Shown: positions 1 to 18,365 of the stretch, piece by piece
Position numbering within the stretch: the stretch's first letter is position 1
Layout of the letters: every line of letters begins with the position of its first letter
DNA from: Clostridia bacterium
GTDB taxonomy: Bacteria; Bacillota; Clostridia; Christensenellales; UBA1242
Assembly: GCA_900753315.1 (NCBI GenBank)
Contig: CAADYP010000015.1
Location: 8,592-72,591, forward strand
Length of the DNA: 64,000 nt
Reading direction: 5' to 3'
Translations under genes and position numbers: made by a program
Notes under the pieces: generated by a model
Database searches by the model: none
Told to the model about the DNA's origin: nothing
The model's input: only the letters and a program-made list of their open reading frames with translations

Positions 1-71
1 GCACTGAGCCGCACTCGAAATGCGGTTGTCGAGAAATCGGCACGTGGGTTCAAATCCCACCGTCTCCGCCA
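1..71 (+). tRNA. tRNA-Ser(CGA), 3' portion (5' end lies outside the window)
   Basis: Anticodon stem ccgca/tgcgg (9-13/21-25) with loop CTCGAAA gives anticodon CGA. Long variable arm (26-43). T arm gtggg-ttcaaat-cccac (44-60). Acceptor 3' strand, G discriminator and encoded CCA end at 71. Confidence 0.85.
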
Positions 72-2526: not shown

Positions 2527-5500
2527 TTATTCAAACACTTCATCAAGCTTTTGCTCTAGTGTTCCGTCTTGGGCGAATGGTAAAGAATCAAATTGTTTTA
2601 GATTGTGTTTATCTATTTTTATATCTTTGCTAAAACCTAATATGAATGATTTTGCGATTCTATAAATAATTTCTGTTGGTGCTAAGCCGTACACTTGTTT
2701 TGCAAAAATATGACTTAATCTGTCGGCATCATTTGGATAAAGTTTTTTCATATTTGAACTTCTATAAAGCTTTTTAACAATTTCTGCAATATAAAGTCCT
2801 GATTTCATATATAGATCTATAAAAGTATGATTTGGGTCATCATAGCAACCTGGATTTTCTTTTTCAAGATTATCTACCATTTCTTTTACTACTTTCTTTG
2901 GTGTAAATATTTGATTGGTCTTTTGAGGTGGAATATAGTCAAAAATATCTTCCTTTGAGTTGTCGTCAAAGTAATTTGCTAAATCTTGTTTTTTCTTCAA
3001 AAATTCTTTTATTGAATCATTGAAAACCACTGAATCAAAAAATCCATTATAATGTTTGCTTTCGCCATTTTCATCAACATAATCAAATCCATCTCTTAAC
3101 TTTCTAAAATCATCTAGTGAAATACTTGTAACTTCTTTAAACACTTTGTTAGGAATTATTTGGTCAAAATTTTCCAAGGTAGTATTTTCATCTCCATATG
3201 CCATCAAGAATGATGGGATAGTCCTCGAAAAACCTCTTAAATGGTCACGAACATTATCCATTAAAGAATCTTTTTGTTTTTCTTTTTTATCCGTTTCAAC
3301 GACATCAACAATAGTTCTTCCTGCATTATCAATAACATTTTTAACTTCGGATTGAATAGAACTCATAAAGTTATGCTCAATTTCTTTTTTCTTTTCATCA
3401 AATTTTGTGTTAATTTCTGCAATCTTATGAACATTTCCAGTTTGTTTTGCATTTTCAAGTTCTTTTGATCGCTCATTTTCAAGTTTGTTTTTACTTATTT
3501 GATAATTGCCGTATTGTTTTTTAACAAAAGTATCTGCCGTTGTGTTTATCTTTCTAACAAGTGCTTGTTGAGTAGATTTAGATAAATCACTGCCATAATT
3601 TTCTTTCGCAGTTTTAACTAGTGTATCTGTAATATTTGTGTGAAATGCATCTAAAAGTGCATTAAGTTTTTCATCTTTTTTATGTGCGATTTCATTTTCT
3701 TTTTGAATTGTTGTAACAGTGTCGATTAAACTTTGTTCAATATCTCCATAAATCTTTTCTCCAAAAACATCATTTGCAGTTCCAATAACTTGTTCTTCTG
3801 GAATTACAACATTTCCTTCATCATCTAAATTAAGTTTTTCTTTTGTATCTTCTTTTATTCCAACAGGCTCTTTAATTGGTTCAAATTTTTGAAGAATATC
3901 CAAAACTTCCTTTGGAGCATTAAATATATTGCCCACATTTTGGAATAAGAAATTACTCATAAATCCGCGACGAACAACTTCTTTTGCATGAATTGATCTT
4001 GGTATTGATAAGACTTTTTCAGCATCAAGTTCAATCATTTCGCCATTTGGATCTTCGCCATATACAGGGAAGAAGTTAAGAAGTTCTCTTACATGTTGTT
4101 TTCTAGTATCAGAGTCGCCACGACCGTTTGCTGTGTCAGCCATAAGGTCATTTGCAAATTCTTCAACAATAGTAAGCGTTCTTGCAGGGTCAAAGTCAAA
4201 TACATAAGAATTTTGTTTTCTGTAACTTTCGCTACCATTTTTGAATAAACATGGGTTTTGTGCTCTAAAAGCCGATTGCATATACAATGCCGGACTCTTT
4301 ACATTTGAAAGCATCATAACGGCAGTCCACTCTGGAATAGTAATGCCAGTTGTAAGTTGTCCTACGGAAATAGTAATTGTTTTATCGTTGTTTTTTATTG
4401 CATCAACAACTTTATCATAAGAGTTTTTGATATTCTTATCAAAACTTATTTCATCACAATAATTTCCTTCATTGTCTATTTTACCATCGCCAGCCGCAAG
4501 AACAATTTTGTAATCTTTGAAGACTTCATGATTTTGCAATTTTTTAGCGAGAGCCTTTGCACTGCTAACATATTTAAGTAGCCACAATGTGTGCTTTAAT
4601 TCTTTTCGTAATTCTTCTGTTGAAAATGGGAATTTTTCTTGTTTTGTTAAAGCATCAAGAAACTTATCAACTGCATCATTATGTATAAATTCACCACTTG
4701 CATTTGTATCAAAAAAGTCGTTTAAGTCCCAGCAAAATGCTTCATTTTGTCCATCATTGTCAAAGTCGGCTCCTTGTTCCACTTTATCATGAACAATGTC
4801 AGACATTTTATAAGTAAACAAATTAAGTTGTGGCAAGTTAGCATAAGGATTTTCTTCTTCGCTTGATTCATTCCATTCATGCTTTGCTTTTTGCTCATCA
4901 GCATAAGTCCAGTTATAAATTGCTTTTGGTGGAAATTTATCATTTGCAAGTGCTTTGAAAGGTGTTCCAGACAAATGCAATGTGCATCTTCTTTTTATTT
5001 GGTCAAATACCACATCAGTTTTGTAAGTATCAACTCCTTCATGTACTTCATCAATAACCAAAACATCCCATTCAAGGTCAGCAACTTCTCTAAGTTTATC
5101 AAACATACCACCAAAGTATATTGATCCTTTAAGGTCTTGAAGGGATACAAATTCTATGCAACCTTTGTGATTTGGTTCAGATATTAAATCAAGATATTTT
5201 TCTCTTGATAAAACATACTTTTTGTCTTTAAGTCCATCAACATTACTTACAAAATAATATCCCGATTCTGTTCCCATAAACTTAACATAATCATCATACC
5301 ATGAGTTTGCAATAGCAGGTCGGTTGGTTACAATAAGTATTTTGTTAATGTTAGGGAGTGCCTTACATAAATCATAAGTTGATAATGTTTTGCCAAACCT
5401 TGGCTTTGCATTCCACAAACATTCCGCTTTGTGAGAATTATCCAAAAAGTAATCTCTTGTTTGTTTAACTGCATCTTTTTGTTCTTTTCTAAGTACATAG

Positions 5501-5889
5501 GGGATAACACCTAAAGTTTGCAAAACACCCTTATCTCTTTTAAACTTGCCAAACAAAACATATGATTCATCACCAGAAATATAAAACCATTCTGGGCAAC
5601 CTTCGTTATCTGGTTTGGGGTCTTTTCTTTTAATATCGTTTTTTGCCAAATATGAATGGAACTCTTTGTCTGTAAATCTTGTCTTTCCATCAGAAAAAAT
5701 TGCGAGATCTTGCCATTCTTTTTTTGCCACAACATCTACTGTTTGTGTTTGCTCTTTTATTCTTGCATCAACATCTCTTTCTGTGTATCCTATCTTTGTC
5801 CAACCATCGTGATATACAACCCCTGGAGTGGTGTATGCATAAATCATAGGAGCAACTTTTGCAGAGGTTTGAATTTTAATTTTTGCCAT
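2527..5889 (-). CDS. T5orf172 (GIY-YIG superfamily) + SF2/SNF2-type helicase, with a C-terminal degenerate half of a gamma-class methyltransferase fold
   Basis: N-terminus MIYAY...WTKIGYT...RIKEQ...FHSYL...PEWFY matches the T5orf172 pattern. Helicase motifs: PRFGKT (I), VIDEVHEG (II), LSGTP (III), QLTTGITIPEW (V), QSAFRAQNP (VI). The last ~127 aa carry an FTPKKVVKEMV motif-X-like element and IDLYMKSGLYI in place of DPACGSGxF. The protein ends before any NPPY. RBS AGGAG. Confidence 0.75.
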   Translation of the reverse strand: MAKIKIQTSAKVAPMIYAYTTPGVVYHDGWTKIGYTERDVDARIKEQTQTVDVVAKKEWQDLAIFSDGKTRFTDKEFHSYLAKNDIKRKDPKPDNEGCPEWFYISGDESYVLFGKFKRDKGVLQTLGVIPYVLRKEQKDAVKQTRDYFLDNSHKAECLWNAKPRFGKTLSTYDLCKALPNINKILIVTNRPAIANSWYDDYVKFMGTESGYYFVSNVDGLKDKKYVLSREKYLDLISEPNHKGCIEFVSLQDLKGSIYFGGMFDKLREVADLEWDVLVIDEVHEGVDTYKTDVVFDQIKRRCTLHLSGTPFKALANDKFPPKAIYNWTYADEQKAKHEWNESSEEENPYANLPQLNLFTYKMSDIVHDKVEQGADFDNDGQNEAFCWDLNDFFDTNASGEFIHNDAVDKFLDALTKQEKFPFSTEELRKELKHTLWLLKYVSSAKALAKKLQNHEVFKDYKIVLAAGDGKIDNEGNYCDEISFDKNIKNSYDKVVDAIKNNDKTITISVGQLTTGITIPEWTAVMMLSNVKSPALYMQSAFRAQNPCLFKNGSESYRKQNSYVFDFDPARTLTIVEEFANDLMADTANGRGDSDTRKQHVRELLNFFPVYGEDPNGEMIELDAEKVLSIPRSIHAKEVVRRGFMSNFLFQNVGNIFNAPKEVLDILQKFEPIKEPVGIKEDTKEKLNLDDEGNVVIPEEQVIGTANDVFGEKIYGDIEQSLIDTVTTIQKENEIAHKKDEKLNALLDAFHTNITDTLVKTAKENYGSDLSKSTQQALVRKINTTADTFVKKQYGNYQISKNKLENERSKELENAKQTGNVHKIAEINTKFDEKKKEIEHNFMSSIQSEVKNVIDNAGRTIVDVVETDKKEKQKDSLMDNVRDHLRGFSRTIPSFLMAYGDENTTLENFDQIIPNKVFKEVTSISLDDFRKLRDGFDYVDENGESKHYNGFFDSVVFNDSIKEFLKKKQDLANYFDDNSKEDIFDYIPPQKTNQIFTPKKVVKEMVDNLEKENPGCYDDPNHTFIDLYMKSGLYIAEIVKKLYRSSNMKKLYPNDADRLSHIFAKQVYGLAPTEIIYRIAKSFILGFSKDIKIDKHNLKQFDSLPFAQDGTLEQKLDEVFE

Positions 5890-5890
5890 A

Positions 5891-7897
5891 TTATTTCATC
5901 TCCTTTACATGAGATTCAATAAAGTTAATTTCGTTTTGGTCTAGTCCATACTTTTTATATAACTGTAAATCAATTTCGTGTATGGATTTTGACCAATCTA
6001 TATCAGATTTATCTGTAAAATCTTGAAGGGGGATAAGAATAAAGGACTCTTTAGATATATTTAATGAATGTCTATTATAAAATAACAATGCTCTAAAATA
6101 TTTTGATTTAATATACTTTAAACAATTCTGTGCATCCATAAGCATATCAAATGGTCCTATTTCCAAAAATGTCTCTGTACATAAACTATCCGGTATTCCA
6201 ACAATAATTTCTGGAGGGACTGTTGAAGTTGTCATATATGCTTTTGAGAAATATAATTTATATTTGTTGATATTGCCACTATTCTTAGTAATTTTGTCTT
6301 TATCTATAAACCCAACAACTCTTTTGGCACCACCTTTTTTACCAGCTACGCCATAGATTTTTACGCAATTTGCTTTTTCACTAAAACTAATGTCCAAATC
6401 TTTATATTTTTCATGATCGTTAAACAAATCAGCAGAGAGTCCATAAGGATTTCTATATGAAACTATTTCACTAAATTGCTTTTTGCCCGAAGATTTTTTT
6501 ATAATTGATGATTGTCGATAATCCCTTATAATAGTATTTGAATATTCTGTTTTAAGATATCTTTTTGAATATATCGCTTCTTCGTCTTTTGGTTTGTATC
6601 TAAAAGTAACCAAGCCATTATAATCTTTTTTCCATACTAAATAACATACGCCACCATCAATATGAACTCCTGGAAAACATTCTGAAGCATCTTCATAATC
6701 AGCAATACTTTTTATATGTGTATCAATCATCATTTCTTGACGAAAACTTTCTAAACCTTTTCCACCTTTCATCCATCTGCTAGGAACAATTAAGGAAAAA
6801 CTATTATTAGTTATTTTTTTTGCTTCATTTATAAAAAATTGATAAATAGGTTTAGCGCTGTCCCCAGTACCACCACCATCACTTTCTTGATAAGGTGGAT
6901 TTCCTATAACAAAATCAAAGTTCATATGCTTTTCTCCTTTGAAAAATTTAATTGATCTTTTGGTCTTCCAGTTCATTATTCGCGAGTAGATTCCAGTATG
7001 CTTGCTGTTATCATTTTTTGAACAACCTAAACAAAGGGCTGTCTCTTCATCTTCAAATAATGACATTTGTCTTTTTTGTATTGGTTTGCAACTGTTTGGA
7101 ATAACATCTTTTAGTCCGTCCATTTGCCATATATTCCAAGAAAGTATTTTTGCAACTTCTATCAAATACTCTTTAATAGGGAACAGTTTAAATTTTGCAA
7201 CATAATAATCTATAAATGTGAATAGCAAATTTTCTCTTGCAATAAGCAAACTATCACCTTGCCACTCATAACCGAAAGTTGATTTGAATGCAACAAGTGT
7301 CCAGAGATACCAATCTTGCTCAGAATTGCAATTTTCATTTATTACTCTTAACTTTCTATCTAAAGCACCGATTCTGCTGTTTACATCTATCCATTGGCCA
7401 GTGCTTGTATCATAACGGCTGGCGAGAAAGGGAGCCTCCCCACATGAAATTTCCAGCACTTTTAGTTTTACAAAATCTTGCCAAGTTTTATCTTTTTCAT
7501 TTGTAAAAAATATTTTGTTATTGTTCACTATCCATGTTTTATCTTTTGCAGTGTTAAACACGTCTTTTTTCTCAAACCACTCATCACAAAGATAATTGTT
7601 CATTTCATTGCATATCCACGAGGGTGTAAAGACTTCAGCTTTGTCTTTGATTCTTATCTTCTGTTCTTTTTGAGATTTATCTATTCGCGGTCTTATTATT
7701 TTCCCGAACCTGCCAGTAATTAGTTTTACTGTTATTGGCTCTGGGGAGTCATAAGACGCACCTTTACTTGCATAAATGTCAGTCGCCCAAATTATGTTTT
7801 TGCCAGAACTTCTATCTTTAAGCAAAATACTTAAAAGTTCAGTATCCAAGCACTTAATATAATTTTCTCGTATATCAATATCTGGTTGTTCTGACAT
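5891..7897 (-). CDS. N6-adenine DNA methyltransferase (Eco57I-like, gamma class) with a C-terminal target-recognition region
   Basis: Motif X EVFTPSWICNEM, motif I VLEISCGEAPFL, motif IV FVIGNPPYQ. About 340 aa follow NPPY. Likely start is the ATG at 7897 (AAGAGGAGA RBS), not the GTG at 7915. The stop is 1 nt from the helicase ATG. Confidence 0.8.
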   Translation of the reverse strand: MSEQPDIDIRENYIKCLDTELLSILLKDRSSGKNIIWATDIYASKGASYDSPEPITVKLITGRFGKIIRPRIDKSQKEQKIRIKDKAEVFTPSWICNEMNNYLCDEWFEKKDVFNTAKDKTWIVNNNKIFFTNEKDKTWQDFVKLKVLEISCGEAPFLASRYDTSTGQWIDVNSRIGALDRKLRVINENCNSEQDWYLWTLVAFKSTFGYEWQGDSLLIARENLLFTFIDYYVAKFKLFPIKEYLIEVAKILSWNIWQMDGLKDVIPNSCKPIQKRQMSLFEDEETALCLGCSKNDNSKHTGIYSRIMNWKTKRSIKFFKGEKHMNFDFVIGNPPYQESDGGGTGDSAKPIYQFFINEAKKITNNSFSLIVPSRWMKGGKGLESFRQEMMIDTHIKSIADYEDASECFPGVHIDGGVCYLVWKKDYNGLVTFRYKPKDEEAIYSKRYLKTEYSNTIIRDYRQSSIIKKSSGKKQFSEIVSYRNPYGLSADLFNDHEKYKDLDISFSEKANCVKIYGVAGKKGGAKRVVGFIDKDKITKNSGNINKYKLYFSKAYMTTSTVPPEIIVGIPDSLCTETFLEIGPFDMLMDAQNCLKYIKSKYFRALLFYNRHSLNISKESFILIPLQDFTDKSDIDWSKSIHEIDLQLYKKYGLDQNEINFIESHVKEMK

Positions 7898-7930
7898 AAA
7901 TCTCCTCTTAGGCACAACCCCAAGAAAAGA

Positions 7931-8350: not shown

Positions 8351-8929
8351 ATGAAATATGGTTATGTGCGTGTTAGCACAAAAGAACAGAATATAGATAG
8401 ACAACTTGTGGAGATGTATGCACAAGGATTAAATGATAAAACAATTTTTATAGACAAACAAAGTGGCAAGGATTTTGAAAGGGATGAGTATCAAAAATTA
8501 AAGAAAAAACTTAAATCTGGTGATTTACTGATAATCAAAAGCATCGATAGACTAGGGCGAAACTATGATATGATTATTGAGGAATGGAGAACGCTTGTAA
8601 ACGATATGAATGTTGATATTCAAGTACTAGATATGCCACTTTTGGACACTCGAACTGAAGGTAAAAACTTAGTTGGAAAATTTATAAGTGATATAGTTTT
8701 ACAAATTCTATCATTTGTCGCTGAAAACGAAAGAGAAAACATAAAAAAGCGTCAGGCTGAAGGCATAAGAATTGCAAAAGAAAAAGGCAAACACCTAGGT
8801 CGCCCAAAAATAGAAATACCACCAAACTTTTCACAAGTGGCAAATCAGTACAAGAAAAAAGAGATAACATTAACCGAAGCCCTGTTATCTCTTAAAATGA
8901 ATAGAAGTAGTTTTTATAAATACTTATAA
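8351..8929 (+). CDS. Small serine recombinase, Hin/Gin invertase-resolvase family
   Basis: MKYGYVRVSTKEQNIDRQ catalytic N-terminus, DRLGRN motif and a C-terminal HTH (GRPK...). 192 aa. AGAGGTGA RBS. Confidence 0.9.
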   Translation: MKYGYVRVSTKEQNIDRQLVEMYAQGLNDKTIFIDKQSGKDFERDEYQKLKKKLKSGDLLIIKSIDRLGRNYDMIIEEWRTLVNDMNVDIQVLDMPLLDTRTEGKNLVGKFISDIVLQILSFVAENERENIKKRQAEGIRIAKEKGKHLGRPKIEIPPNFSQVANQYKKKEITLTEALLSLKMNRSSFYKYL

Positions 8930-9623: not shown

Positions 9624-11342
9624 TTAATAGGAAAATGCCGGATTTAAACCATTATCTATATTTACATACTGATCTGAACTTAAATTTAATTTAATGGGAT
9701 CTAGCGCCCCTACTATTATCATTTGCATTTCATTTTTTTCAACAAAATCTTTCATACAATCAATAATTTCGTTTGTCGGTTCTTTTTCGTCTACAAATTC
9801 TTGAACTACAGCATCAACACAAATATATTGTGCAAATGGCATGCCATTGAAATTATTTTTGATAAACACACACATTGCCATATAAGTTGCCAGTTGCCAC
9901 AAAGTCATCCTCGCTTTACTACCAGGTACATACGCAACTTCCACACTATTTCCATCATCATCGCGTTTAACTTCTATAGCTGATACAGATACTTTTGCAG
10001 GATTAAATCTTAGTTGAAAACTTTCTTTTTGCAAATCTTTTTTTACAAATTCCAATTTATCAAACTTTTTGTATATATTAGTAAGCAAAACATTGAAACT
10101 ATTTAGCGTTTTTTGATTAAAGCCATTACTTAACGTGTTAATGGTCTTATTGTTTTCTTGAATTGTTTTCTCTTTTTCTTTTATTTTCTCTTCTAAATTA
10201 TCTGCCCTATAATTTTGGAATGCATTATCTAAAATATTTACAATTTTCATTTTATCATCGTAAGAATATTTATCCAATCCTCTATTTATTTGGCCGATTT
10301 GCTTATCGATACCTGCTTTCCTCAATTTCAAATTCTCCAAACTTTTTTTATAATCTTTACCGTTCAAAAATAAAATGTCCTGTTTGTTTCTTAAAATATC
10401 TTGCTTCAAAATATTTACAACTTCTTTGTTGTCATCATTTTTAATTAAAATGCCGGAAAGCATTTCTAAAAGTTTGTTTGAATTATCAAGATCCTTCGTC
10501 TCATATTTGGACTGTTCTTCCAAAAACATTTGGTACTTAATTTCTTCAGCCAAAAGTTGGGAAGCTTTAATTAAATAAAGTAAATCTTTATTTTTGACTT
10601 CTTCCTTTTTAAGTGACAAGGTCTTTTGATATTCTTTAAACCGTTCTTTTAACTTCAAAATACTATCAGTGTTATTTAATGATAATTTCGACATATTTTC
10701 GCGAATAATTTTTTCACAATATATAGAACCATCATTAGATTGTCTTAACTCTTTAATCTCTTTTTCAAGTCTTGCATTCTCTGTTTTCAGTTTTGTTATT
10801 CGTAATACATTTTCTTTGTTAAAAATATATAACATTATTGATTTTATATTCAATAATTCTCCAATTTCCTTTGATTTTGGAAAAACATTGGTTATATCTG
10901 CAATACCGCTTTCAGGTAAATAATTGAACAAACTCAATGATCTATAGCTTATATTTTTCCCTGTTAATGCCTTATAATCATCAAGAACATCGTAATTATC
11001 TGCTATAATGAAACTTAAAATCTTCTCTTTATATTCCTCTATATTAATAACTCTAATGTATCTCTGATCTTCATCACTTAATTTATAAAAAAAGTTTTTT
11101 TCATCTCTACATAGCCACAGACATCTTTTATCTATTTCCATCCTTAGTTCGATTGAGTTTACACCCCTCATTGCTTGTTTGTTTGCATAATTATATTCAG
11201 AGTCACCCATCATAAAGTCAATTACATCCAAGAAAACAGTTTTACCCCTATCGTGGCGGCCATAAATATAGGAAAAATTATTCAATAAGATTTCCCTGTC
11301 ACCTTTATTCGTTTTCAAAATCAACTTAGAAAGTTTAAACAC
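9624..11342 (-). CDS. lmuB: LmuB-like SMC/ABC-type ATPase (DUF3732-like) of a Lamassu system
   Basis: N-terminal NFSYIYGRHDRGKTVFLDVIDFMMGDS is a Walker A in DUF3732-like context. A long central coiled-coil-like K/E/L-rich region follows. The C-terminal YICVDAVVQEF is Walker-B-like. The GTG start overlaps the lmuC stop by 8 nt and has a GGAGGTG RBS. Confidence 0.7.
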   Translation of the reverse strand: MFKLSKLILKTNKGDREILLNNFSYIYGRHDRGKTVFLDVIDFMMGDSEYNYANKQAMRGVNSIELRMEIDKRCLWLCRDEKNFFYKLSDEDQRYIRVINIEEYKEKILSFIIADNYDVLDDYKALTGKNISYRSLSLFNYLPESGIADITNVFPKSKEIGELLNIKSIMLYIFNKENVLRITKLKTENARLEKEIKELRQSNDGSIYCEKIIRENMSKLSLNNTDSILKLKERFKEYQKTLSLKKEEVKNKDLLYLIKASQLLAEEIKYQMFLEEQSKYETKDLDNSNKLLEMLSGILIKNDDNKEVVNILKQDILRNKQDILFLNGKDYKKSLENLKLRKAGIDKQIGQINRGLDKYSYDDKMKIVNILDNAFQNYRADNLEEKIKEKEKTIQENNKTINTLSNGFNQKTLNSFNVLLTNIYKKFDKLEFVKKDLQKESFQLRFNPAKVSVSAIEVKRDDDGNSVEVAYVPGSKARMTLWQLATYMAMCVFIKNNFNGMPFAQYICVDAVVQEFVDEKEPTNEIIDCMKDFVEKNEMQMIIVGALDPIKLNLSSDQYVNIDNGLNPAFSY

Positions 11343-11757
11343 AATTAGTCACCTCCGATAAAAATGATTTAAGTCCCAAACTCTTAATTTCATCAATAAA
11401 AATTTTTATTGAATTTTTCTCTAGTCGCTGATCTTTTACAAATATTACACTTTTATCTATTAATTCAATATCCTGGCCTTTAATTTTTACGATATTATTC
11501 TCCAACAAAATATTCATACTCTCTATGGCTTCTAGTAATTTTTCATAAGAAAATGCATTCCCCTTATTTAGTTCACTAAAATAGAAACTTATTACATCAT
11601 TTCTCTTAGTAGTAGAGCAATCAATATCTCTACAATAAATTAAACATATTGTACTGTAAATTATTTTACTCAACGATTTCAATTCAAAATTCTTTAATAA
11701 ATATAAATAAATGTTTATATAATTTGCGTAAGTTAACGACTTGCTAATTTTTATCAT
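11335..11757 (-). CDS. lmuC: LmuC-like small middle component
   Basis: 140-aa ORF sandwiched between lmuA and lmuB and overlapping both (14 nt and 8 nt). The call rests on position and size, not on motifs. Confidence 0.5.
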   Translation of the reverse strand: MIKISKSLTYANYINIYLYLLKNFELKSLSKIIYSTICLIYCRDIDCSTTKRNDVISFYFSELNKGNAFSYEKLLEAIESMNILLENNIVKIKGQDIELIDKSVIFVKDQRLEKNSIKIFIDEIKSLGLKSFLSEVTNCV

Positions 11758-12895
11758 CTATATCACCCCACTTAATTCTTGTATTATCATCAACCTCCTG
11801 GCTCGTCATATAAATATAACAACCTTTTTGTAAAAAAACACTTTCTCCCGCCTGTGAAATTATTTTGCTCTTAATGGGTGTTTGCGTGGTTGTGAAATAA
11901 ATATTCTTTGGGCTTTTTTCTTTACCGTAAAAATCCAATTTGTCTAAAGCATCTCGATAATTATTTTTAGCTTCCTCATGAGTAGACAACACTTTATTTA
12001 TATCTTTTTCTTTATAAAAATCTATTAATCTTCTATAAAACAACTCTCTCAACACATCTTCATATATTTGTTCATCTGATCTCTCCGCCAATCTTAATTG
12101 CTTGACTTCTAATTTATCTTCACTTAAAATTGATTCTATTTGTCTTTCTACCTTATTTTTATTTCTAAACTCAATAAAATCAGGGTCAAAGATTTCATTA
12201 CCATATTTCTGACATGCTAAGATCAAATATTTTGTAAAATCAACGTTTGAAATACTGTATCCCCATCTAGATTCTATGCTTGCAACCATTTCATTCGTTA
12301 TTTTTTGTTTGACAAAATCAAACCTTTCTTTCCTTGGAACAATTAAATCTTTATTAATATCTACGCAAAATCTACTATCAAAAATCTCATATTGTTCTCT
12401 TTTAATAGTTTCGATTGAATAATTATCAATTACATCATAATTATCTATTATATGATTAAGAATGTTATCTACGAAAGATGAATCTAAATCTTTTATTTTA
12501 TTATATGCCTTACGCTTAATTGTCCTTATATCCGCATCTTTAGCCTCTCCGATATGTTTTTTGAGTGCAGTAAAAAAGTTGGAATCAACATCAAAAGAAA
12601 CTTCTTTCTCCGAAATTAATTGATATCTATATTCTTTGTAAGAATCAAATGCAGTTTCTATTAACCAATTGTCAAAGATTTTATAAAAATCATCATCATC
12701 CAAATCCCCAGTTTTAACTTGAATAAGTATCTTTTTGTATGAGATAGACGCTAATTTATATTCAATATTTACATCATCAGATACTTCAAATCCTATATTA
12801 AAATCGCCGTTATTTATATTTTTTAGTAAGAATTTATAAAAAAACTCTTGTTGATATAGAAAACCTCTATAACTCGTAACTCCTGCTCCTGGCAT
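11744..12895 (-). CDS. lmuA: LmuA-like effector with an N-terminal Cap4/DUF4297-type nuclease domain
   Basis: N-terminus GAGVTSYRGFLYQQEFFYKFLL...FEVSDDVNIEY...IQVKTG fits the DUF4297 pattern (G-F-x-YQ, E-x-D, Q-x-K). GAGGTG RBS. Confidence 0.65.
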   Translation of the reverse strand: MPGAGVTSYRGFLYQQEFFYKFLLKNINNGDFNIGFEVSDDVNIEYKLASISYKKILIQVKTGDLDDDDFYKIFDNWLIETAFDSYKEYRYQLISEKEVSFDVDSNFFTALKKHIGEAKDADIRTIKRKAYNKIKDLDSSFVDNILNHIIDNYDVIDNYSIETIKREQYEIFDSRFCVDINKDLIVPRKERFDFVKQKITNEMVASIESRWGYSISNVDFTKYLILACQKYGNEIFDPDFIEFRNKNKVERQIESILSEDKLEVKQLRLAERSDEQIYEDVLRELFYRRLIDFYKEKDINKVLSTHEEAKNNYRDALDKLDFYGKEKSPKNIYFTTTQTPIKSKIISQAGESVFLQKGCYIYMTSQEVDDNTRIKWGDIDDKN

Positions 12896-12977
12896 TTTTC
12901 ACCTCTAAATCCATTATAACATAATTTTAACTTATCTGTATCAAATAAATTTAAATATTATTTAAATACTTTAGCGA

Positions 12978-15737
12978 TTAATGAATAATATTACTCGTAT
13001 AAAATTTTAATCCAAATTTGTTGGCCAACAATTGTGCATCTCTAATATTAAAATTCGACTTAAACCTTGAGATTGTTGTTTTTTCAGTTTCCGGAGTCCA
13101 ATATATTTTCAACAGTCTTTTTGTTCTTGTTATTGCAGTATAGAATACACTATGTGATATTTTCTCTTCAACATCGTGTGTAATTACAATTTTAACAGAA
13201 TCATATTCTAAACCTTGAGATTTGTGAATTGATGTAGCATAGGCCACTTGGAAAGGTATAATATTATCAGCATCTTCATCATCATAATCTGTAGTTTTTA
13301 CTTTTGTTATTCTAAACTTGATAATAGATTTCCCATCTATTACACTTACAATTTCAAAATTTGCATGACGATATTCCATTTTTTCAGTTAAGTCCACATT
13401 TATTTCAATTTGAAAATCTATCCAAAGATCATCTTTTTCTATCTTTACAATTTTTCCCTTCATATTGTTATAAACCAATCCATCAAACCGTTCAGTTTTA
13501 TTAAATAACACGGGATCATCAACCTTAAAAGTCCAAACATCCCAATAAATTGGTTTATTTACGTTGTTTGCTTGTAAAAATCTATTAATATTATTTATTC
13601 CATATAATCCATCATAATTCAAACACAAAATTATTTCATCAGTCGAATATGGAGTAAAAATCGAGTCATTCAAATCACTTGAGAATCCGTTTCTATCTAT
13701 TGCCTCTTGAATATCACACTGCAGAGTCCTAACATTTGACCATAATCTTAATAATTCTTCATCATTAGTTCTATGTATATCGGATAAATCTGTAATACAA
13801 TAATTAGGGACAAAATATCTAGCTAAGTTAAACCAATTACCAAATGAAATTGCTTCAATTTGATAAACATCACCAACAACAATTATTTGTTCACATTGTA
13901 TTTTTTCTAAAATCTTTCTCATGTCTTCATTACTTACAATGCTACATTCGTCTATAACCAATATATCATAATTAACCGAAAGGTCATTATTTATAAACTG
14001 ATAAATAGTTTCAAATTTAAAATTTTCGTTTTTATCAATTCTACCACTTAAATTATTTACAGCAGTATTTGTTTGGGATAGAAACAACATTGATTTATTA
14101 CTATAGAAGTCTGCAATATGATTAACAAGATAAGTTTTTCCTGTACCCGCAGGGCCGTAAATTAATGCAATTTTTGTTCTTTCAAATAGTGTCTTTAATT
14201 TAATCAACTTTTCTTCACTATCTATTTTTGTTTTTCCAATTTCATTATACCATTGATTAAAATCTTTACAATAATTATTTACTCCACCAGAAGACAATTC
14301 CTTAAACTTATTAATAATTGTTATTATGTCATCTTCATATTTCTGTATAAACAAATTATTATGTAGTTTATATATTTTTCTTCCTGGATGGCCATTGTAA
14401 ACAGTGTTATTATATTTCTCGATTAAACTATCTATTTCTTCAAAATTTTCTAAACTATCAATAGGAGTATATAAAGTCGATTCTCTTTCAACATTGTTGA
14501 CCAGTCTCCTTGCAAGCAATTCATGCTCATGGCCATCAATATCTATGCATTGCAATAAGTCAACAATCCTCATTCTATGTCCTAATAAAGATGTATTATA
14601 AGGCATTTCGTCAAAAGATATCGATCCATACTGTATGTACAAGTTTGACAACTTCCTATTTGGCCTAGTATCATATTGATCCTTTATTACATTATTGTTT
14701 AATCTTAGTAACAAACAGCATATAATATTTGATCCTGGCAATTTATTAAAAAATAGTTCTCTGCATTTATCCAAGCACTCAAAAATTTTTATTTTTTTAA
14801 CATCTGCCAAAATATCTCTCTTATTTATGTCATAAATATCTTTTTCAAGTTTTATTAATTCAACCAAACTGATTTTGTTTTCCGTCATAAATTCCATTAA
14901 ATTTGAATATTCTTTTCCATCTGTCCTTATTTCTTCATGAATTCCAAAAAGTTTCATAAAATTTTGAAATTCACACGGTCTTACAGAAACCATCCAACTA
15001 GTTAAAACATTAATAGGCATAGTCTTTCCAAAAATATAAACCGTTCTTCTTACATATTTAATATTTACAGCATAATTCTCAAAAACCTTTATCCTTGAAT
15101 AAACTATCATTCTATCATACTTAGTAGCATAATCATTTGCTGCGGATAAAGTAATTTCATAATATATGTCATTTTTAATTAAAATCTGATTAACTTTTTG
15201 CACATAATATCTATTACCATAAAATAAAGAACCCTTTTCTAGTGGCGTATTGTCAATAACACTTGTAATAGTTTCATAATAGTCTAAAAATTTAGGGTCT
15301 TGATATACTTGAAATTTGTATATGCTTCTTAATATATTTATGTTGTGATAATTTTTAAAATATTTTTTTAATTCTATAAGATACTCATAATACTTTAACA
15401 TAAGACGTTCAGAGATATCTTCATCTTCATAATAATGAGAAATGGAACCTTGCAACATATAATGAAATTTATGAATAAAATAAGTTTCTGGTTTACTTTT
15501 TATAAATCGTAATGACTCTTGAATTCTGTCATAATTATAATTAAGAGGCTCTCCTCTGTCTTTCATAAGAAGATATAATGATAAAGCTTCTACAAAATGT
15601 CTTAACGGCTCCAAAATATTTTTAGATACTTCAGCTCTGTTTTCTCTTGTAAACATGTCAAGTTCATCATTTATTTCCTTATTCATCTTATTTAGAACAT
15701 CACTTAAATTTCTCATATGTATGTACCTCGTAATCAT
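12978..15737 (-). CDS. RecD/TraA-like SF1 helicase with a ~520-aa unassigned N-terminal region
   Basis: C-terminal half has GPAGTGKT (I), LSQTNTAVNNL (Ia), LVIDECSIV (II), VVGDVYQIEAI (III), SIHKSQGLEYDSV (V) and YTAITRTKRLL (VI). I recognise no motif in the N-terminal half. The start may be the ATG at 15716, because a TGtTATAAT box overlaps the ATG at 15737. Confidence 0.75.
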   Translation of the reverse strand: MITRYIHMRNLSDVLNKMNKEINDELDMFTRENRAEVSKNILEPLRHFVEALSLYLLMKDRGEPLNYNYDRIQESLRFIKSKPETYFIHKFHYMLQGSISHYYEDEDISERLMLKYYEYLIELKKYFKNYHNINILRSIYKFQVYQDPKFLDYYETITSVIDNTPLEKGSLFYGNRYYVQKVNQILIKNDIYYEITLSAANDYATKYDRMIVYSRIKVFENYAVNIKYVRRTVYIFGKTMPINVLTSWMVSVRPCEFQNFMKLFGIHEEIRTDGKEYSNLMEFMTENKISLVELIKLEKDIYDINKRDILADVKKIKIFECLDKCRELFFNKLPGSNIICCLLLRLNNNVIKDQYDTRPNRKLSNLYIQYGSISFDEMPYNTSLLGHRMRIVDLLQCIDIDGHEHELLARRLVNNVERESTLYTPIDSLENFEEIDSLIEKYNNTVYNGHPGRKIYKLHNNLFIQKYEDDIITIINKFKELSSGGVNNYCKDFNQWYNEIGKTKIDSEEKLIKLKTLFERTKIALIYGPAGTGKTYLVNHIADFYSNKSMLFLSQTNTAVNNLSGRIDKNENFKFETIYQFINNDLSVNYDILVIDECSIVSNEDMRKILEKIQCEQIIVVGDVYQIEAISFGNWFNLARYFVPNYCITDLSDIHRTNDEELLRLWSNVRTLQCDIQEAIDRNGFSSDLNDSIFTPYSTDEIILCLNYDGLYGINNINRFLQANNVNKPIYWDVWTFKVDDPVLFNKTERFDGLVYNNMKGKIVKIEKDDLWIDFQIEINVDLTEKMEYRHANFEIVSVIDGKSIIKFRITKVKTTDYDDEDADNIIPFQVAYATSIHKSQGLEYDSVKIVITHDVEEKISHSVFYTAITRTKRLLKIYWTPETEKTTISRFKSNFNIRDAQLLANKFGLKFYTSNIIH

Positions 15738-15853
15738 TATAACAAATATTTATTTTTCTTACTATGGTTTCGACAAAAATCGCATAAAAAATTTTTTATT
15801 TATTTGTGATAGAAATTCATGTATATTGTGCTATAATATTTTTGAGGTTGAAT

Positions 15854-16570
15854 ATGTATTTAAAATTAAAAAATATATTAAATGAAATTTGCAAAAAGAT
15901 GCCTTATGTGATTTTTTATCACATAGACAATGATGAAGATAAATCTAACAACACTTATTATCGACTGTTTTTTGATAATTTTAAAACCATTGAATTGATT
16001 TGTAATGCAATAGATATTAAGGCATACACACAAGCAGGAACTTTATTAAGATCTTTAATAGAACAAGTTTCCACTTTACAAGTGTTATTAGAAAATCCCT
16101 CTATCCTAGATGAATATATTAAATTTGCAAAATTAAAACTACATTTAATAATAGATAAGGAAACTACAACACAGGAAGTTCTTAAATTAAAAAAAGATAG
16201 CAAAACTAAATCTAGCTTTATAAATTTTTGCGATTTTGGATGGTTAGAAAAATTAGGCGAAACTAATCTTTCAATAGATACAATAATAAAAAAAGCAAAT
16301 ATGGGCTCTTTGCCCATTTGGAGAACATATTGCAATAATTTCGTACACAACTCTTTATCATTCTTGCAATTAAATAATGATGGCATCAATTATTATGTTA
16401 AAAACTTTATTTATATTTCAGCATTATTATTTGACCATTTAGTTTGTCTTTTTCATAACCTTAATGGTTTTGACTTCACTTTTGATAATATTAATTATAG
16501 GGAAATTTTTATTAAGCAATACAAATATGTTACAGAAAAACAAAAACTAAATAATGATACCTTAGTGTAA
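15854..16570 (+). CDS. Hypothetical protein (238 aa), divergent from the helicase gene
   Basis: ATG at 15854 is preceded by GAGG and a TGcTATAAT box (15829-15837). The track start at 15806 is a GTG inside the promoter. No confident motif. Confidence 0.5.
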   Translation: MYLKLKNILNEICKKMPYVIFYHIDNDEDKSNNTYYRLFFDNFKTIELICNAIDIKAYTQAGTLLRSLIEQVSTLQVLLENPSILDEYIKFAKLKLHLIIDKETTTQEVLKLKKDSKTKSSFINFCDFGWLEKLGETNLSIDTIIKKANMGSLPIWRTYCNNFVHNSLSFLQLNNDGINYYVKNFIYISALLFDHLVCLFHNLNGFDFTFDNINYREIFIKQYKYVTEKQKLNNDTLV

Positions 16571-16793: not shown

Positions 16794-17447
16794 TTACCTC
16801 TCCTTTTGTTGGAAGTTCCTTTTAAAAATTGTGTCTAAAGTTTGATAATAAACTATTCTGGATTTCTTGTCAGGTTCTTTATTTTTGTTTTCAAGATATA
16901 ATTTCTTTACATTCTGCCACAATCCATTATCTTTAATTAAGTTTTCAACATATCTATGATCGGTTGCAACTTTTCTTAAAGCCCAAGAATATGTGTTTGT
17001 GTTTTTATCAAACCTAACATACTCTTGCCTCTCTTTACCATCATCATCTTCATAATAACTAACAATTGCAAAATCAACACTGCATATTATTTTATTTCTA
17101 TTAGCATTTAATTTTTTAATTGTAATTACAGAAGTTGAATCTTCAGAATAGTCATAACTATCATCAAAATATCTATTAAATAATTTAACAAATATTTCTT
17201 TCAATAGTTTAGGATCTTCATATTTTTCATTCAATATTTTTTGAATTACAATATTGTAGTCCAAATCAAATCCTTTATTACCATTTTTAACTCTGGTTAT
17301 TAATTTTCTTCCGGCACTTCCAATTAAGTTGAATTGAAAAGTTAAAATTTTGTTTTTTCGCAAATATTTTTGAACTTCTCTTAATATTCCATCAACCTCC
17401 AACTTAAAAGGTTGATACTCGCCCTTCGGTACATATTCAAACGACAT
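16794..17447 (-). CDS. Small pol-beta-fold nucleotidyltransferase (SMODS/CD-NTase-like core)
   Basis: LIGSAGRKLITRVKNGNKGFDLDYNIV carries G-S followed by D-x-D. A third acidic residue lies in CSVDFAIV. 217 aa. Perfect AAGGAGG RBS. Confidence 0.6.
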   Translation of the reverse strand: MSFEYVPKGEYQPFKLEVDGILREVQKYLRKNKILTFQFNLIGSAGRKLITRVKNGNKGFDLDYNIVIQKILNEKYEDPKLLKEIFVKLFNRYFDDSYDYSEDSTSVITIKKLNANRNKIICSVDFAIVSYYEDDDGKERQEYVRFDKNTNTYSWALRKVATDHRYVENLIKDNGLWQNVKKLYLENKNKEPDKKSRIVYYQTLDTIFKRNFQQKER

Positions 17448-17873
17448 ATTTTACCTCCTTACTGTTTGAATTGGAGGGGGATTGAAATTTATACTATTTC
17501 AATCAGGGAGTAAACAAGTTTCATAGCCAACCTATTTACTATTTCAGTATAGCACACATTGATTAAAAAGTGTATACTTTTACAAAAAATCATTTTTACA
17601 CTATATAAAACCCATATGCAAACAGGTGTCTATAAGTAACCACCTCATGCGTTGGAATATAGTCCATAAACTCAATGTGGGTGCTAAACTTCTGGGTTGG
17701 GTCGACTTGACCAACTCTCTTTGCCTTGCCCTTACTCTTACCTACTTTTTCACTGCCTTGCCCTTTTCTATCGTTTTTACCATATGACTTTCCTTTCTCC
17801 CCGCAAGGTTCGAATACACATTCCCTTGGCCCGCCAACATTTTAGATGCAAATTTTTAAATAAAGGAGTTTAT

Positions 17874-18365
17874 ATGGAAAAAGAAGATTTGGTAAAATTT
17901 ACGCCCGGACAACTAGTTGATATGGGAATTTGTCCTACATGTTTCAATCGAGAAACAAACGGGGCACTTTATGGAGATGAATCAAATTTAAAAATTTATG
18001 AAGACCAAGATATAGATTGCATGTTTGTCCCAAACCCAAGAGCTGTTGGACACATGATGATAGCAACAATGAAACACTATCATGATTTGAGCGAAGCTCC
18101 AGACTGCATTAATGAAAAAATTGTTCGATTTGCAAAACAATTTATGATAATAATAAAAGAAGTTTATGGTTGTGAACGAGTTTACCTTTGCACAATGTGT
18201 GATGGGCCAAACAACCATTATCACATTCAACTAATACCTAGATATTCAAATGAAGAACGTGGTTCAAAAAACTTTGTAAAGCCTAGACAAGAATATGTCT
18301 ATGATTCTTCAAAAGTTGAGAAAGTGAGGACCCTGATTGCCGAATATGCAAAAAATAAAGAGTAG
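17874..18365 (+). CDS. HIT-superfamily protein (H-x-H-x-Q variant)
   Basis: HYHIQLIP motif and an N-terminal CPTC. AAAGGAG RBS before the ATG at 17874. The longer track ORF starts at a TTG in non-coding sequence. Confidence 0.6.
   Translation: MEKEDLVKFTPGQLVDMGICPTCFNRETNGALYGDESNLKIYEDQDIDCMFVPNPRAVGHMMIATMKHYHDLSEAPDCINEKIVRFAKQFMIIIKEVYGCERVYLCTMCDGPNNHYHIQLIPRYSNEERGSKNFVKPRQEYVYDSSKVEKVRTLIAEYAKNKE

What the first reader, a model, noticed from the sequence alone, without database searches (positions are those of the whole stretch)
12978..15737. About 915-aa RecD-like helicase with a ~520-aa uncharacterised N-terminal region, directly upstream of Lamassu: a candidate new defence gene or a fourth component
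The C-terminal ~400 aa contain all SF1 RecD/TraA-type motifs. In the first ~520 aa I find no nuclease, methylase or known sensor motif. The gene is co-oriented with lmuA 82 bp downstream, and no terminator hairpin lies in the gap. However lmuA also has its own TGtTATAAT box (12913-21). The gene could therefore be an independent single-gene system, comparable in logic to nuclease-helicase immunity proteins. It could instead be an accessory helicase feeding the Lamassu complex. I do not know either arrangement as a described system.
Basis: partly seen in the sequence, partly recalled or inferred. Interest (0 to 1): 0.75.

Follow-up and report, generated by a model that had tools for sequence, protein, structure and literature searches.

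The report
Stand-alone candidate defence helicase (PDC-S53)
The gene is a real, intact helicase of about 912 amino acids that belongs to an already catalogued but untested candidate anti-phage family (PADLOC PDC-S53), and it lies next to a Lamassu system only by chance of island assembly, not as a fourth Lamassu part.

Summary
A 919-aa ORF (12978-15737, minus strand; the likely true start is M8, giving 912 aa) has an intact SF1B RecD2/Dda-like helicase core (aa ~505-890). Its ~500-aa N-terminal region matches no Pfam, NCBIfam or PDB family. The protein is not unknown: it matches PADLOC's phage-defence candidate PDC-S53 over its full length (E=0, 1108 bits). That family was predicted by "guilt-by-embedding" in RM/BREX systems and I found no experimental test of it. 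A confident AlphaFold model (pLDDT 90) shows helical domain, OB-like beta-barrel, helical domain, with no nuclease or relaxase fold. The downstream trio is a real but very divergent type II Lamassu: its LmuB model hits solved LmuB chains first. The two are separate modules. None of 84 homologue loci carries the trio, and the trio occurs elsewhere without the helicase. Similarity to the relatives breaks inside the 82-bp gap, and each module has its own extended -10 box. The two closest relatives carry a type II RM at that position. No partner gene is conserved. Neighbours are RM systems, PARIS, MADS and recombinases. Most likely this is a self-contained, horizontally mobile helicase with a probable but unproven defence role. 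Interest is moderate.

The parts
12978..15737 (-). Helicase ORF as listed (919 aa). The probable real CDS is 12978-15716 (912 aa, start at M8).
   Evidence: Full-length PADLOC PDC-S53 match, aa 8-910. L005 and L006 orthologues are 912 aa.
15736..15744 (-). Extended -10 box TGtTATAAT of the helicase gene. It overlaps the first ATG. GAGG at 15726-15729 and ATG at 15714-15716 follow.
   Evidence: Sequence read. This is a consensus match only, in a 27% G+C region where such matches are common.
15249..15707 (-). N-terminal helical domain 1 (aa 11-163). It contains the invariant SERLMLKYYE helix (S109-E118), H92 and H101.
   Evidence: AF2 model, pLDDT 90.1. Conservation.
14988..15212 (-). Five-stranded OB-like beta-barrel (aa 176-250). 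Invariant basic and aromatic residues: R176, Y178, K181, Y193, E194, K206, R209, Y222.
   Evidence: AF2 model. Weak Foldseek hits are nearly all OB-fold ssDNA binders: Rim1, SSB, RPA70N, CST, LEF-3 and phage SSBs, with probability up to 0.98-1.0 over ~90 aa but E >= 0.009. Conservation.
14226..14978 (-). N-terminal helical domain 2 (aa 254-504). Invariant residues include R253-P-C255-E256, N348, S364, D376, H387 and E406.
   Evidence: No PDB or BFVD match at E<=1e-3.
13068..14225 (-). SF1B (RecD2/Dda/Pif1-like) helicase core, aa 505-890. Walker A is at 14133-14159, motif II at 13938-13958, motif III at 13854-13880 and motifs V/VI at 13122-13238.
12896..12977 (-). The 82-bp junction between the helicase module and the Lamassu module. 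It holds TGtTATAAT (12913-12921), the RBS, and a 9-nt perfect palindrome (12949-12967).
   Evidence: Similarity to L005 ends at 12969 and similarity to L085 begins at 12906.
9624..12895 (-). Neighbouring, separate module: a divergent type II Lamassu. LmuA-like is 11744-12895 (383 aa), LmuC-like is 11335-11757 (140 aa) and LmuB-like is 9624-11342 (572 aa).
   Evidence: Cap4_nuclease scores 27.1 bits against a cut-off of 26.2. There is no PADLOC hit. The LmuB-like model's top 7 PDB matches are 9uxh_F, four Salmonella LmuACB chains of 9hqu/9hqx and 9nyg_B, plus the B. subtilis YydD model 9a6c_A, at E 2e-15 to 2e-10. The trio is conserved as a block in L085.

Best explanation
The gene encodes a self-contained, horizontally mobile SF1B helicase of the PADLOC PDC-S53 family. 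Its architecture is helical domain, OB-like barrel, helical domain, then a RecD2/Dda-type 5'-3' motor. It has no nuclease domain. It is an independent transcription and mobility unit that landed next to a divergent type II Lamassu in a low-G+C defence island. It is not part of Lamassu. This much is shown or nearly shown (about 0.9). The following is inferred (about 0.55). The protein is a single-gene anti-phage or anti-MGE factor. The OB-containing N-terminal module would bind ssDNA or a fork-like replication or recombination intermediate of the invader. It would load or license the motor. ATP-driven 5'-3' translocation would then dismantle the intermediate or strip proteins from it. Alternatively it would expose the DNA to host nucleases, or drain ATP, and so block phage replication without a nuclease of its own.
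For: Identity: the match to PDC-S53 is full length, E=0, 1108 bits. PDC families are candidates derived from genes embedded in BREX/DISARM/type I RM.
Intact enzyme: all helicase motifs are invariant in 73 relatives.
N-terminal fold: the AF2 model has pLDDT 90.1 and pTM 0.82. The only recurring fold hits are OB-fold ssDNA binders. Invariant basic and aromatic residues lie on the barrel strands.
Independence from Lamassu: none of 84 homologue loci contains relatives of the trio. L005 (79% identity) and L006 (57%) carry two C5-methylases plus an HNH nuclease at the same downstream position. The trio occurs behind an integrase, without the helicase, in L085. The similarity breakpoints fall inside the 82-bp gap. 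Each module has its own TGtTATAAT box.
Single-gene unit: length is fixed at ~897-934 aa. No neighbour family is present in more than 11 of 81 loci or at a fixed position.
Defence or mobile context: HsdR, HsdS, C5, N6 and N4 methylases, serine recombinases and integrases recur. An RM-type gene lies within +-6 ORFs in 26 of 78 loci and a recombinase in 16 of 78. PADLOC hits among 121 flanking proteins include mad3 (5), AriA (4), PDC-S15 (4) and type I RM (3).
In two temperate phages the gene lies on the strand opposite the replication genes, beside a type IIS RM or methylases and, in phi1605, site-specific recombinases.
Distribution is patchy but wide: at least 561 species genomes and 1235 clusters at 50% identity across many phyla, with 50-64% pairwise identity among the best 73. 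In the window the gene sits in an island of G+C 0.25-0.28 against 0.33-0.35 outside.
Against: I found no experiment on this family: 'PDC-S53' occurs in no searchable paper.
I did not compare the defence-context counts with a matched background, so enrichment is not demonstrated here.
There is no effector domain such as a nuclease, so the killing or blocking step is conjecture.
The N-terminal region is as conserved as the motor. That is unusual for a sensor of fast-evolving phage proteins and is equally compatible with a housekeeping role for mobile elements.
PHROG phrog_325 ('Dda-like helicase') matches aa 8-893, so phages carry the same protein, possibly for their own DNA metabolism.
The OB assignment rests on weak Foldseek E-values (>= 0.009) over ~90 residues.
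Read-through from the helicase into lmuA cannot be excluded, because no terminator was found.
Confidence: 0.6

Rival explanations
1. The helicase is a fourth component or accessory of the adjacent Lamassu. It would, for example, generate or process the DNA ends that LmuACB senses, and would be co-transcribed with lmuA.
For: The genes are co-oriented with an 82-bp gap and no GC-rich terminator. Lamassu is activated by dsDNA ends (bioRxiv 10.1101/2025.06.23.660979), so a DNA motor could plausibly cooperate with it.
Against: None of 84 helicase loci holds relatives of the trio. No Lamassu model is among the top PADLOC families of 121 flanking proteins. The trio is found without the helicase in L085. 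Homology breakpoints fall in the gap. lmuA has its own extended -10 box and RBS. The closest relatives carry an RM system at this position instead. The solved Lamassu complex described consists of an LmuB dimer with LmuA alone or with LmuA and LmuC, with no helicase subunit mentioned.
Confidence: 0.04
2. The gene is not an immune gene. It is a DNA-metabolism helicase of mobile elements (prophages, integrative elements, small plasmids), such as a Dda-like accessory replication or recombination helicase or a counter-defence factor. It is carried in accessory regions because the elements are.
For: phrog_325 'Dda-like helicase' matches the whole length. Full-length homologues occur in two temperate phages and five plasmids, including a 10.6-kb L. 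plantarum plasmid where the gene follows the rep gene. Serine recombinases and integrases are the commonest neighbours. Conservation is uniform and high, and no effector domain is present.
Against: Only 2 of 50,697 phage records and 5 of 72,556 plasmid records carry it, whereas at least 561 species genomes do. In both phages it is on the strand opposite the replication module, beside RM genes and (in one) a repressor. It recurs directly next to or within type I RM, PARIS and MADS genes. Its PADLOC family was defined by embedding inside defence operons.
Confidence: 0.3
3. The gene encodes a conjugative relaxase-helicase (TraA/TraI type) or a replication initiator-helicase whose N-terminus is a diverged relaxase or Rep domain.
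For: There are weak helicase-only matches to TraA_Ti and TraI models (49 bits or less, against cut-offs of 590 or more).
Against: These matches cover only the helicase core. The confident N-terminal model shows no HUH or relaxase fold and gives no PDB hit at E<=1e-3. No relaxase, T4SS or oriT-type neighbours are among the recurrent families. The family is almost absent from plasmids.
Confidence: 0.01

Closest known systems
PADLOC-DB v2 phage defence candidate PDC-S53 (model PDLC05035; Payne et al., bioRxiv 10.1101/2024.01.29.577857)
   Same: The HMM match is end to end (aa 8-910 against 1-896 of 900, E=0, 1108 bits). The architecture is single-gene. Neighbourhoods are rich in RM systems.
   Different: Nothing structural differs. 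The family itself is only a prediction: I found no phenotype, mechanism or domain description for it.
Single-protein nuclease-helicase immunity proteins: lactococcal AbiO (PD-(D/E)xK plus SF1B helicase; FEMS Microbiol Rev 2026, PMC13064643) and staphylococcal Nhi (the latter from my own knowledge)
   Same: Both are one polypeptide with a C-terminal SF1 helicase and an N-terminal accessory region, carried in defence or mobile contexts. The Pfam SLFN-g3_helicase match (6e-8) echoes the SLFN_3-like helicase domain that InterPro reports for AbiO.
   Different: No nuclease fold or motif is found in the N-terminal 500 aa. No AbiO or Nhi model appears among the PADLOC hits at E<=0.01. The effector step therefore cannot be DNA cleavage by the protein itself.
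SF1B helicases RecD2, Dda and Pif1
   Same: All SF1B motifs and the UvrD_C_2 element are present. The best PDB sequence matches are Pif1, RecD and RecD2.
   Different: The RecD2 model scores 100 bits against an equivalog cut-off of 500, so it is not an orthologue. It carries a unique ~500-aa N-terminal module. Distribution is patchy and accessory rather than core.
Type II Lamassu (LmuACB / DdmABC)
   Same: Only the neighbour matches: gene order A-C-B, a Cap4-type nuclease N-domain in LmuA, and an LmuB fold.
   Different: The helicase is not a described Lamassu subunit and does not co-occur with Lamassu elsewhere.
PHROG phrog_325 'Dda-like helicase'
   Same: The profile matches aa 8-893, including the N-terminal region (E 1.2e-65). 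Full-length 38%-identical homologues occur in Erysipelothrix phage phi1605 and Terrisporobacter phage TPDSL_ph1.
   Different: The PHROG name is an annotation by similarity. In those phages the gene lies outside the replication operon, next to RM genes or methylases.

Membership tests
PADLOC PDC-S53 | Full-length match to the family HMM (PDLC05035) | tested here: met
   E=0, 1108 bits, aa 8-910 against model positions 1-896 of 900
PADLOC PDC-S53 | Single-gene system with no obligatory partner | tested here: met
   No neighbour family occurs in more than 11 of 81 loci or at a fixed position. Close co-oriented neighbours range from 76 to 1080 aa.
PADLOC PDC-S53 | Occurs embedded in or next to RM/BREX/DISARM operons | tested here: met
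   HsdR lies directly upstream and co-oriented in several loci. HsdS and methylases recur. RM-type genes lie within +-6 ORFs in 26 of 78 loci. No background rate was computed.
Anti-phage defence system (functional class) | Confers resistance to phage when expressed | not testable with these tools
   No experimental report was found.
Lamassu (as a fourth component) | Conserved co-occurrence with LmuB and LmuA | tested here: not met
   phmmer with the trio's proteins against all ORFs of 84 loci gave 0 hits. No Lamassu model is among the top 25 PADLOC families of 121 flanking proteins. The trio occurs without the helicase in L085.
Lamassu (as a fourth component) | Belongs to the same evolutionary and transcriptional module | tested here: not met
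   tblastx breakpoints fall at 12969 (L005) and 12906 (L085), inside the 82-bp gap. The two modules have separate extended -10 boxes. Co-transcription by read-through is not excluded.
Type II Lamassu (the neighbouring trio) | SMC/Rad50-like LmuB with a coiled coil | tested here: met
   AF2 model with pLDDT 66.9. Six of the top 7 Foldseek PDB hits are chains from solved Lamassu complexes and the seventh is the B. subtilis YydD model 9a6c_A (E 2.3e-15 to 2.2e-10), ahead of SMC and Rad50. The model is only of moderate confidence.
Type II Lamassu (the neighbouring trio) | LmuA effector, small LmuC and A-C-B gene order | tested here: met
   Cap4_nuclease scores 27.1 bits against a cut-off of 26.2 in the 383-aa protein. 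A 140-aa gene overlaps both neighbours.
Type II Lamassu (the neighbouring trio) | Match to curated Lamassu sequence models | tested here: not met
   No PADLOC hit at E<=10 and no DUF3732 Pfam hit. PDB sequence and profile searches were empty. The trio is a very divergent member; only 7 homologues were found.
RecD2 (TIGR01448 equivalog) | Score above the equivalog cut-off | tested here: not met
   100 bits against 500. It is related at the superfamily level only.
SF1B helicase superfamily | Walker A, motifs II, III, V and VI, and the UvrD_C_2 element | tested here: met
Conjugative relaxase-helicase (TraA/TraI) | N-terminal HUH relaxase domain and a transfer-gene context | tested here: not met
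   No relaxase Pfam or NCBIfam match in aa 1-500. No such fold is found. Only 5 of 72,556 plasmids carry the gene.
AbiO / Nhi-type nuclease-helicase | Nuclease domain fused to the SF1 helicase | tested here: not met
   No nuclease family or fold is detected in the N-terminal region.

The most novel reading that the evidence does not exclude
PDC-S53 proteins are true nuclease-free, single-polypeptide immune helicases. A previously undescribed N-terminal module (helical, OB, helical) recognises phage ssDNA or fork intermediates. The SF1B motor alone aborts phage replication by remodelling DNA or protein-DNA complexes, or by draining ATP. This would be a defence mechanism with no dedicated effector domain, spread by horizontal transfer across at least seven phyla, including genome-reduced Patescibacteria.
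Probability: 0.35. Interest if true: 0.65.

Novelty: new member of a known kind. Interest (0 to 1): 0.4.

Why it matters
If PDC-S53 is shown to protect against phage, it would be a widespread helicase-only immune protein, present in at least 561 species genomes. Its conserved sensor-like module has no solved or annotated relative. That would pose a clear mechanistic question: how does a motor without a nuclease stop a virus? The present analysis narrows the experiment. The gene can be tested alone. Its probable true start, promoter, catalytic residues and candidate DNA-binding residues are defined. The adjacent trio can be tested separately as a Lamassu that current HMM-based tools (PADLOC) fail to detect. 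As it stands, the gene is an additional member of an already listed candidate family, so the discovery value of this particular window is moderate.

Tried and rejected
1. An exact-sequence look-up of the protein in public assemblies found nothing on record.
2. A literature search for 'PDC-S53' gave 0 papers. The supplementary tables of the PADLOC embedding preprint are cut before S53. The S. thermophilus and lactococcal screens do not include this family.
3. PDB sequence and profile searches for the N-terminal region gave no hit even at E<=10.
4. Foldseek of the N-terminal model against PDB and BFVD gave no hit at E<=1e-3. There is only an OB-fold signal and two Pithovirus 'RecD helicase' models at E 1e-3 to 8e-3 with poor TM scores. 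I do not claim homology to them.
5. I looked by eye at the invariant residues for HNH, HEPN or PD-(D/E)xK signatures and found nothing convincing.
6. Sequence-based confirmation of Lamassu (PADLOC at E<=10, Pfam, PDB phmmer and profile) all failed. Only the fold search worked.
7. I looked for a conserved partner, including the DUF5677 gene and the 278-aa gene that precedes the helicase in two phages. Both are lineage-specific.
8. The relaxase or replication-helicase reading is rejected.
Full report
OBSERVATION

The ORF exists as described: 12978..15737 on the minus strand, 919 aa. Its C-terminal ~400 aa form an intact SF1B helicase.
- Pfam matches are AAA_30 (8e-19), Viral_helicase1, AAA_19 and UvrD_C_2.
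- NCBIfam RecD2 scores 100 bits, far below the equivalog cut-off of 500.
- The best PDB sequence matches are Pif1, RecD and RecD2, and they cover only the core.
- Walker A (YGPAGTGKT, aa 527-535), motif II (DECS, 596-599), motif III (GDxxQ) and motifs V/VI are present. All are invariant in 73 full-length relatives.
- No Pfam or NCBIfam family matches aa 1-500.

The gap to the next gene is 82 bp. It contains TGtTATAAT at 12913-12921 and a good RBS. It has no GC-rich terminator, only a weak AT hairpin.

One refinement concerns the start codon. The first ATG lies inside the helicase's own TGtTATAAT box (15736-15744). A GAGG at 15726-15729 precedes a second ATG at 15714-15716. The PADLOC model and all relatives also begin at residue 8. 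The real product is most likely 912 aa, exactly the length found in L005 and L006.

WHAT THE PROTEIN IS

PADLOC-DB v2 contains a model, PDC-S53 (PDLC05035), that matches the protein end to end: E=0, 1108 bits, aa 8-910 against positions 1-896 of 900. PDC entries are "phage defence candidates". [quoted passage not shown] Payne et al. listed 145 of them as predictions. The seven systems confirmed in that study came from the separate Hma-embedded set (bioRxiv 10.1101/2024.01.29.577857). I found no paper that mentions PDC-S53. The two functional screens of lactic acid bacteria that I checked do not cover it. The family is therefore catalogued but uncharacterised.

THE N-TERMINAL REGION

I aligned the N-terminal 510 aa with 73 homologues. 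AlphaFold2 gave a confident model, with pLDDT 90.1 and pTM 0.82. It has three parts:
- a helical domain (aa 11-163);
- a five-stranded beta-barrel (176-250);
- a second, mostly helical domain (254-504).

Foldseek against PDB and against viral models found nothing at E<=1e-3. The weak hits are almost all OB-fold ssDNA-binding proteins aligned over about 90 residues: Rim1, bacterial and phage SSBs, RPA70N, CST and LEF-3, with probabilities up to 0.98-1.0. The barrel strands carry invariant basic and aromatic residues (R176, Y178, K181, Y193, K206, R209, Y222), which is typical of nucleic-acid-binding OB surfaces (inference). I saw no nuclease, methylase, relaxase (HUH) or Rep fold. A profile of the N-terminal region finds no PDB sequence even at E<=10.

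FAMILY SIZE AND DISTRIBUTION

- The N-terminal profile finds 1235 representatives of 50%-identity clusters (477 at E<=1e-30). The domain is always at the N-terminus, and full-length proteins are 895-957 aa.
- At least 561 species-representative genomes encode it. They span Firmicutes, Bacteroidota, Campylobacterota, Actinobacteria, Gammaproteobacteria and Melainabacteria. By my count of the record titles, 22 of the best 80 loci are from Patescibacteria.
- Among the best 73 full-length members, pairwise identity is 0.50-0.62 in the N-terminal parts and 0.64 in the motor.
- Only 5 of 72,556 plasmid records and 2 of 50,697 phage records carry it.

IS IT PART OF LAMASSU?

First, the neighbour really is Lamassu, but a very divergent one. 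PADLOC finds nothing for the three proteins even at E<=10, and PDB sequence searches are empty. Three observations nevertheless support the label:
- The 383-aa protein has a Cap4_nuclease domain just above Pfam's threshold (27.1 against 26.2 bits).
- The gene order is large, small, then SMC-like.
- An AlphaFold model of the 572-aa protein (moderate quality, pLDDT 66.9) has as its best PDB matches chains of solved Lamassu complexes (9uxh_F, 9hqu_A/B, 9hqx_B/f, 9nyg_B) and the B. subtilis YydD model (9a6c_A). These score E 2e-15 to 2e-10, ahead of SMC and Rad50.

This fits type II Lamassu (LmuACB) as defined in bioRxiv 10.1101/2025.06.23.660979.

Second, the helicase and the trio are independent:
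- phmmer with the three trio proteins against every ORF of 84 helicase-homologue loci gave no hit.
- No Lamassu model is among the 25 commonest PADLOC families for the 121 proteins that directly flank the helicase in other genomes.
- The two closest relatives carry two C5-methylases and an HNH nuclease, co-oriented, at the position that the trio occupies here. These are L005 (79% identity in the N-terminal region) and L006 (57%).
- The trio's closest relative (L085, 65%) keeps all three genes but is preceded by an integrase, with no helicase.
- Translated similarity between the window and L005 runs from the DUF5677 gene through the helicase and stops at 12969. Similarity to L085 starts at 12906 and covers only the trio. 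The junction of the two modules therefore lies inside the 82-bp gap.
- Each module has its own extended -10 box.

The "fourth component" reading is thus refuted as a general property. Functional cooperation in this one island cannot be excluded by sequence alone.

CONTEXT OF THE FAMILY

No partner gene is conserved. The commonest neighbour family occurs in 11 of 81 loci at scattered positions. Tightly linked co-oriented neighbours range from 76 to 1080 aa. The recurrent neighbours are:
- large serine recombinases (11 loci);
- HTH proteins (10);
- type I HsdR (8, mostly directly upstream and co-oriented);
- C5 methylases (7);
- N6/N4 methylases (7 and 6);
- tyrosine integrases (6);
- HsdS (5).

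An RM-type gene from just these clusters lies within six ORFs in 26 of 78 loci, and a recombinase in 16 of 78. Among directly flanking proteins, PADLOC also recognises MADS (mad3 in 5, mad5 in 3), PARIS AriA (4) and PDC-S15 (4).

Two temperate phages (Erysipelothrix phi1605 and Terrisporobacter TPDSL_ph1) share an 83%-identical two-gene block of a 278-aa gene plus the helicase. The block lies on the strand opposite the replication genes. It sits beside a type IIS RM or methylases; phi1605 also has site-specific recombinases there and TPDSL_ph1 a repressor.

In the window, the gene sits in a low-G+C stretch (0.25-0.28 against 0.33-0.35 outside). That stretch also holds:
- a T5orf172/ResIII protein with an Eco57I-like methylase;
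- two serine recombinases;
- the Lamassu trio;
- a DUF5677 gene.
It lies next to housekeeping rpoD and dnaG.

All this is the usual signature of defence-island cargo. I did not compute a background rate, so enrichment is plausible but not demonstrated here.

MECHANISM

Shown:
- The SF1B motor is intact and strongly conserved.
- The N-terminal module is confidently folded and equally conserved, and it contains an OB-like barrel.
- No nuclease is present.
- No partner gene is conserved.

Inferred:
- The OB-containing module binds ssDNA or a fork or recombination intermediate, and positions or licenses the 5'-3' motor.
- Translocation then disrupts phage replication or recombination complexes.
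- Alternatively it feeds DNA to host nucleases or drains ATP.

I put about 0.55 on a defence role and about 0.9 on independence from Lamassu. The main rival (about 0.3) is a DNA-metabolism or counter-defence helicase of mobile elements. That rival is supported by the full-length match to PHROG phrog_325, 'Dda-like helicase', by the recombinase-rich neighbourhoods, and by the uniform conservation. A relaxase or Rep reading is rejected.

COMPARISON WITH KNOWN SYSTEMS

By the membership test the protein is a member of PDC-S53. In logic it resembles the single-polypeptide nuclease-helicase immunity proteins: AbiO (PD-(D/E)xK plus SF1B; PMC13064643) and Nhi (from my own knowledge). It lacks their nuclease and does not match their models. 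It is an SF1B helicase but not a RecD2 orthologue.

VERDICT

It is independent of Lamassu and already listed as an untested defence candidate. I rate it a new member of a known (predicted) kind, with moderate interest (0.4). A side result of some practical value is that the adjacent Lamassu is invisible to current HMM-based detection (PADLOC) and was recognised only by structure.

Noticed in passing
window 9624-12895 (-): A three-gene type II Lamassu (383, 140 and 572 aa) is so divergent that no PADLOC, Pfam DUF3732 or PDB sequence search detects it. Only 7 homologues of its LmuB were found in 5.8 billion proteins. Its fold matches solved LmuB chains first. Current HMM-based annotation (PADLOC) would miss it.
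   Followed up: partly
window 2527-7915 (-): A 1120-aa T5orf172 + ResIII protein lies directly upstream of a 674-aa Eco57I-like (type IIG-like) methyltransferase. A similar T5orf172 + Eco57I/MmeI methylase cassette lies next to the helicase homologue P0002 in L001-L004. This may be a recurrent RM-like pair.
   Followed up: partly
window 50-1681 (-) and 8351-8929 (+): A large serine recombinase and a small resolvase lie within the low-G+C island (G+C 0.25-0.28 at ~8-18 kb, against 0.33-0.35 outside). This suggests an integrated mobile element or a recombination hotspot next to rpoD/dnaG. I did not map the boundaries.
   Followed up: no
window 15806-16570 (+): A DUF5677 gene runs divergently from the helicase and is conserved in the same position in L005 (E 8e-125). 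It is absent from the other loci. Its function is unknown.
   Followed up: partly
window 16794-17447 (-) and 17697-18365 (+): Two ORFs of 217 and 222 aa in the island have no match in Pfam, PADLOC or PHROGs.
   Followed up: no
window 15736-15744 and 12913-12921 (-): The same extended -10 sequence, TGTTATAAT, precedes both the helicase and lmuA. A perfect 9-nt palindrome (ATTTAAATA/TATTTAAAT) lies at 12949-12967 in the gap. It could be an operator or simply an effect of AT-rich sequence.
   Followed up: no
L087 6158-9805 and L089 7158-10769: Erysipelothrix phage phi1605 and Terrisporobacter phage TPDSL_ph1, from different host genera, share an 83%-identical two-gene block of a 278-aa hypothetical gene plus a PDC-S53 helicase. 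The block sits beside a type IIS RM system or methylase genes.
   Followed up: partly
L005-L084 (genome-contig hits): By my count of the record titles, 22 of the 80 best-matching species genomes are Patescibacteria/CPR (Saccharibacteria, Parcubacteria, Magasanikbacteria and others), which have very small genomes. That is an unusually strong representation for a 900-aa accessory gene.
   Followed up: no
BFVD hits A0A481ZAS3 and A0A481Z2V4: The best viral structural matches of the N-terminal model are two Pithovirus 'RecD helicase' proteins (E 1.2e-3 and 7.5e-3, 320-438 aligned columns, low TM score). Giant-virus helicases may share this N-terminal module.
   Followed up: no
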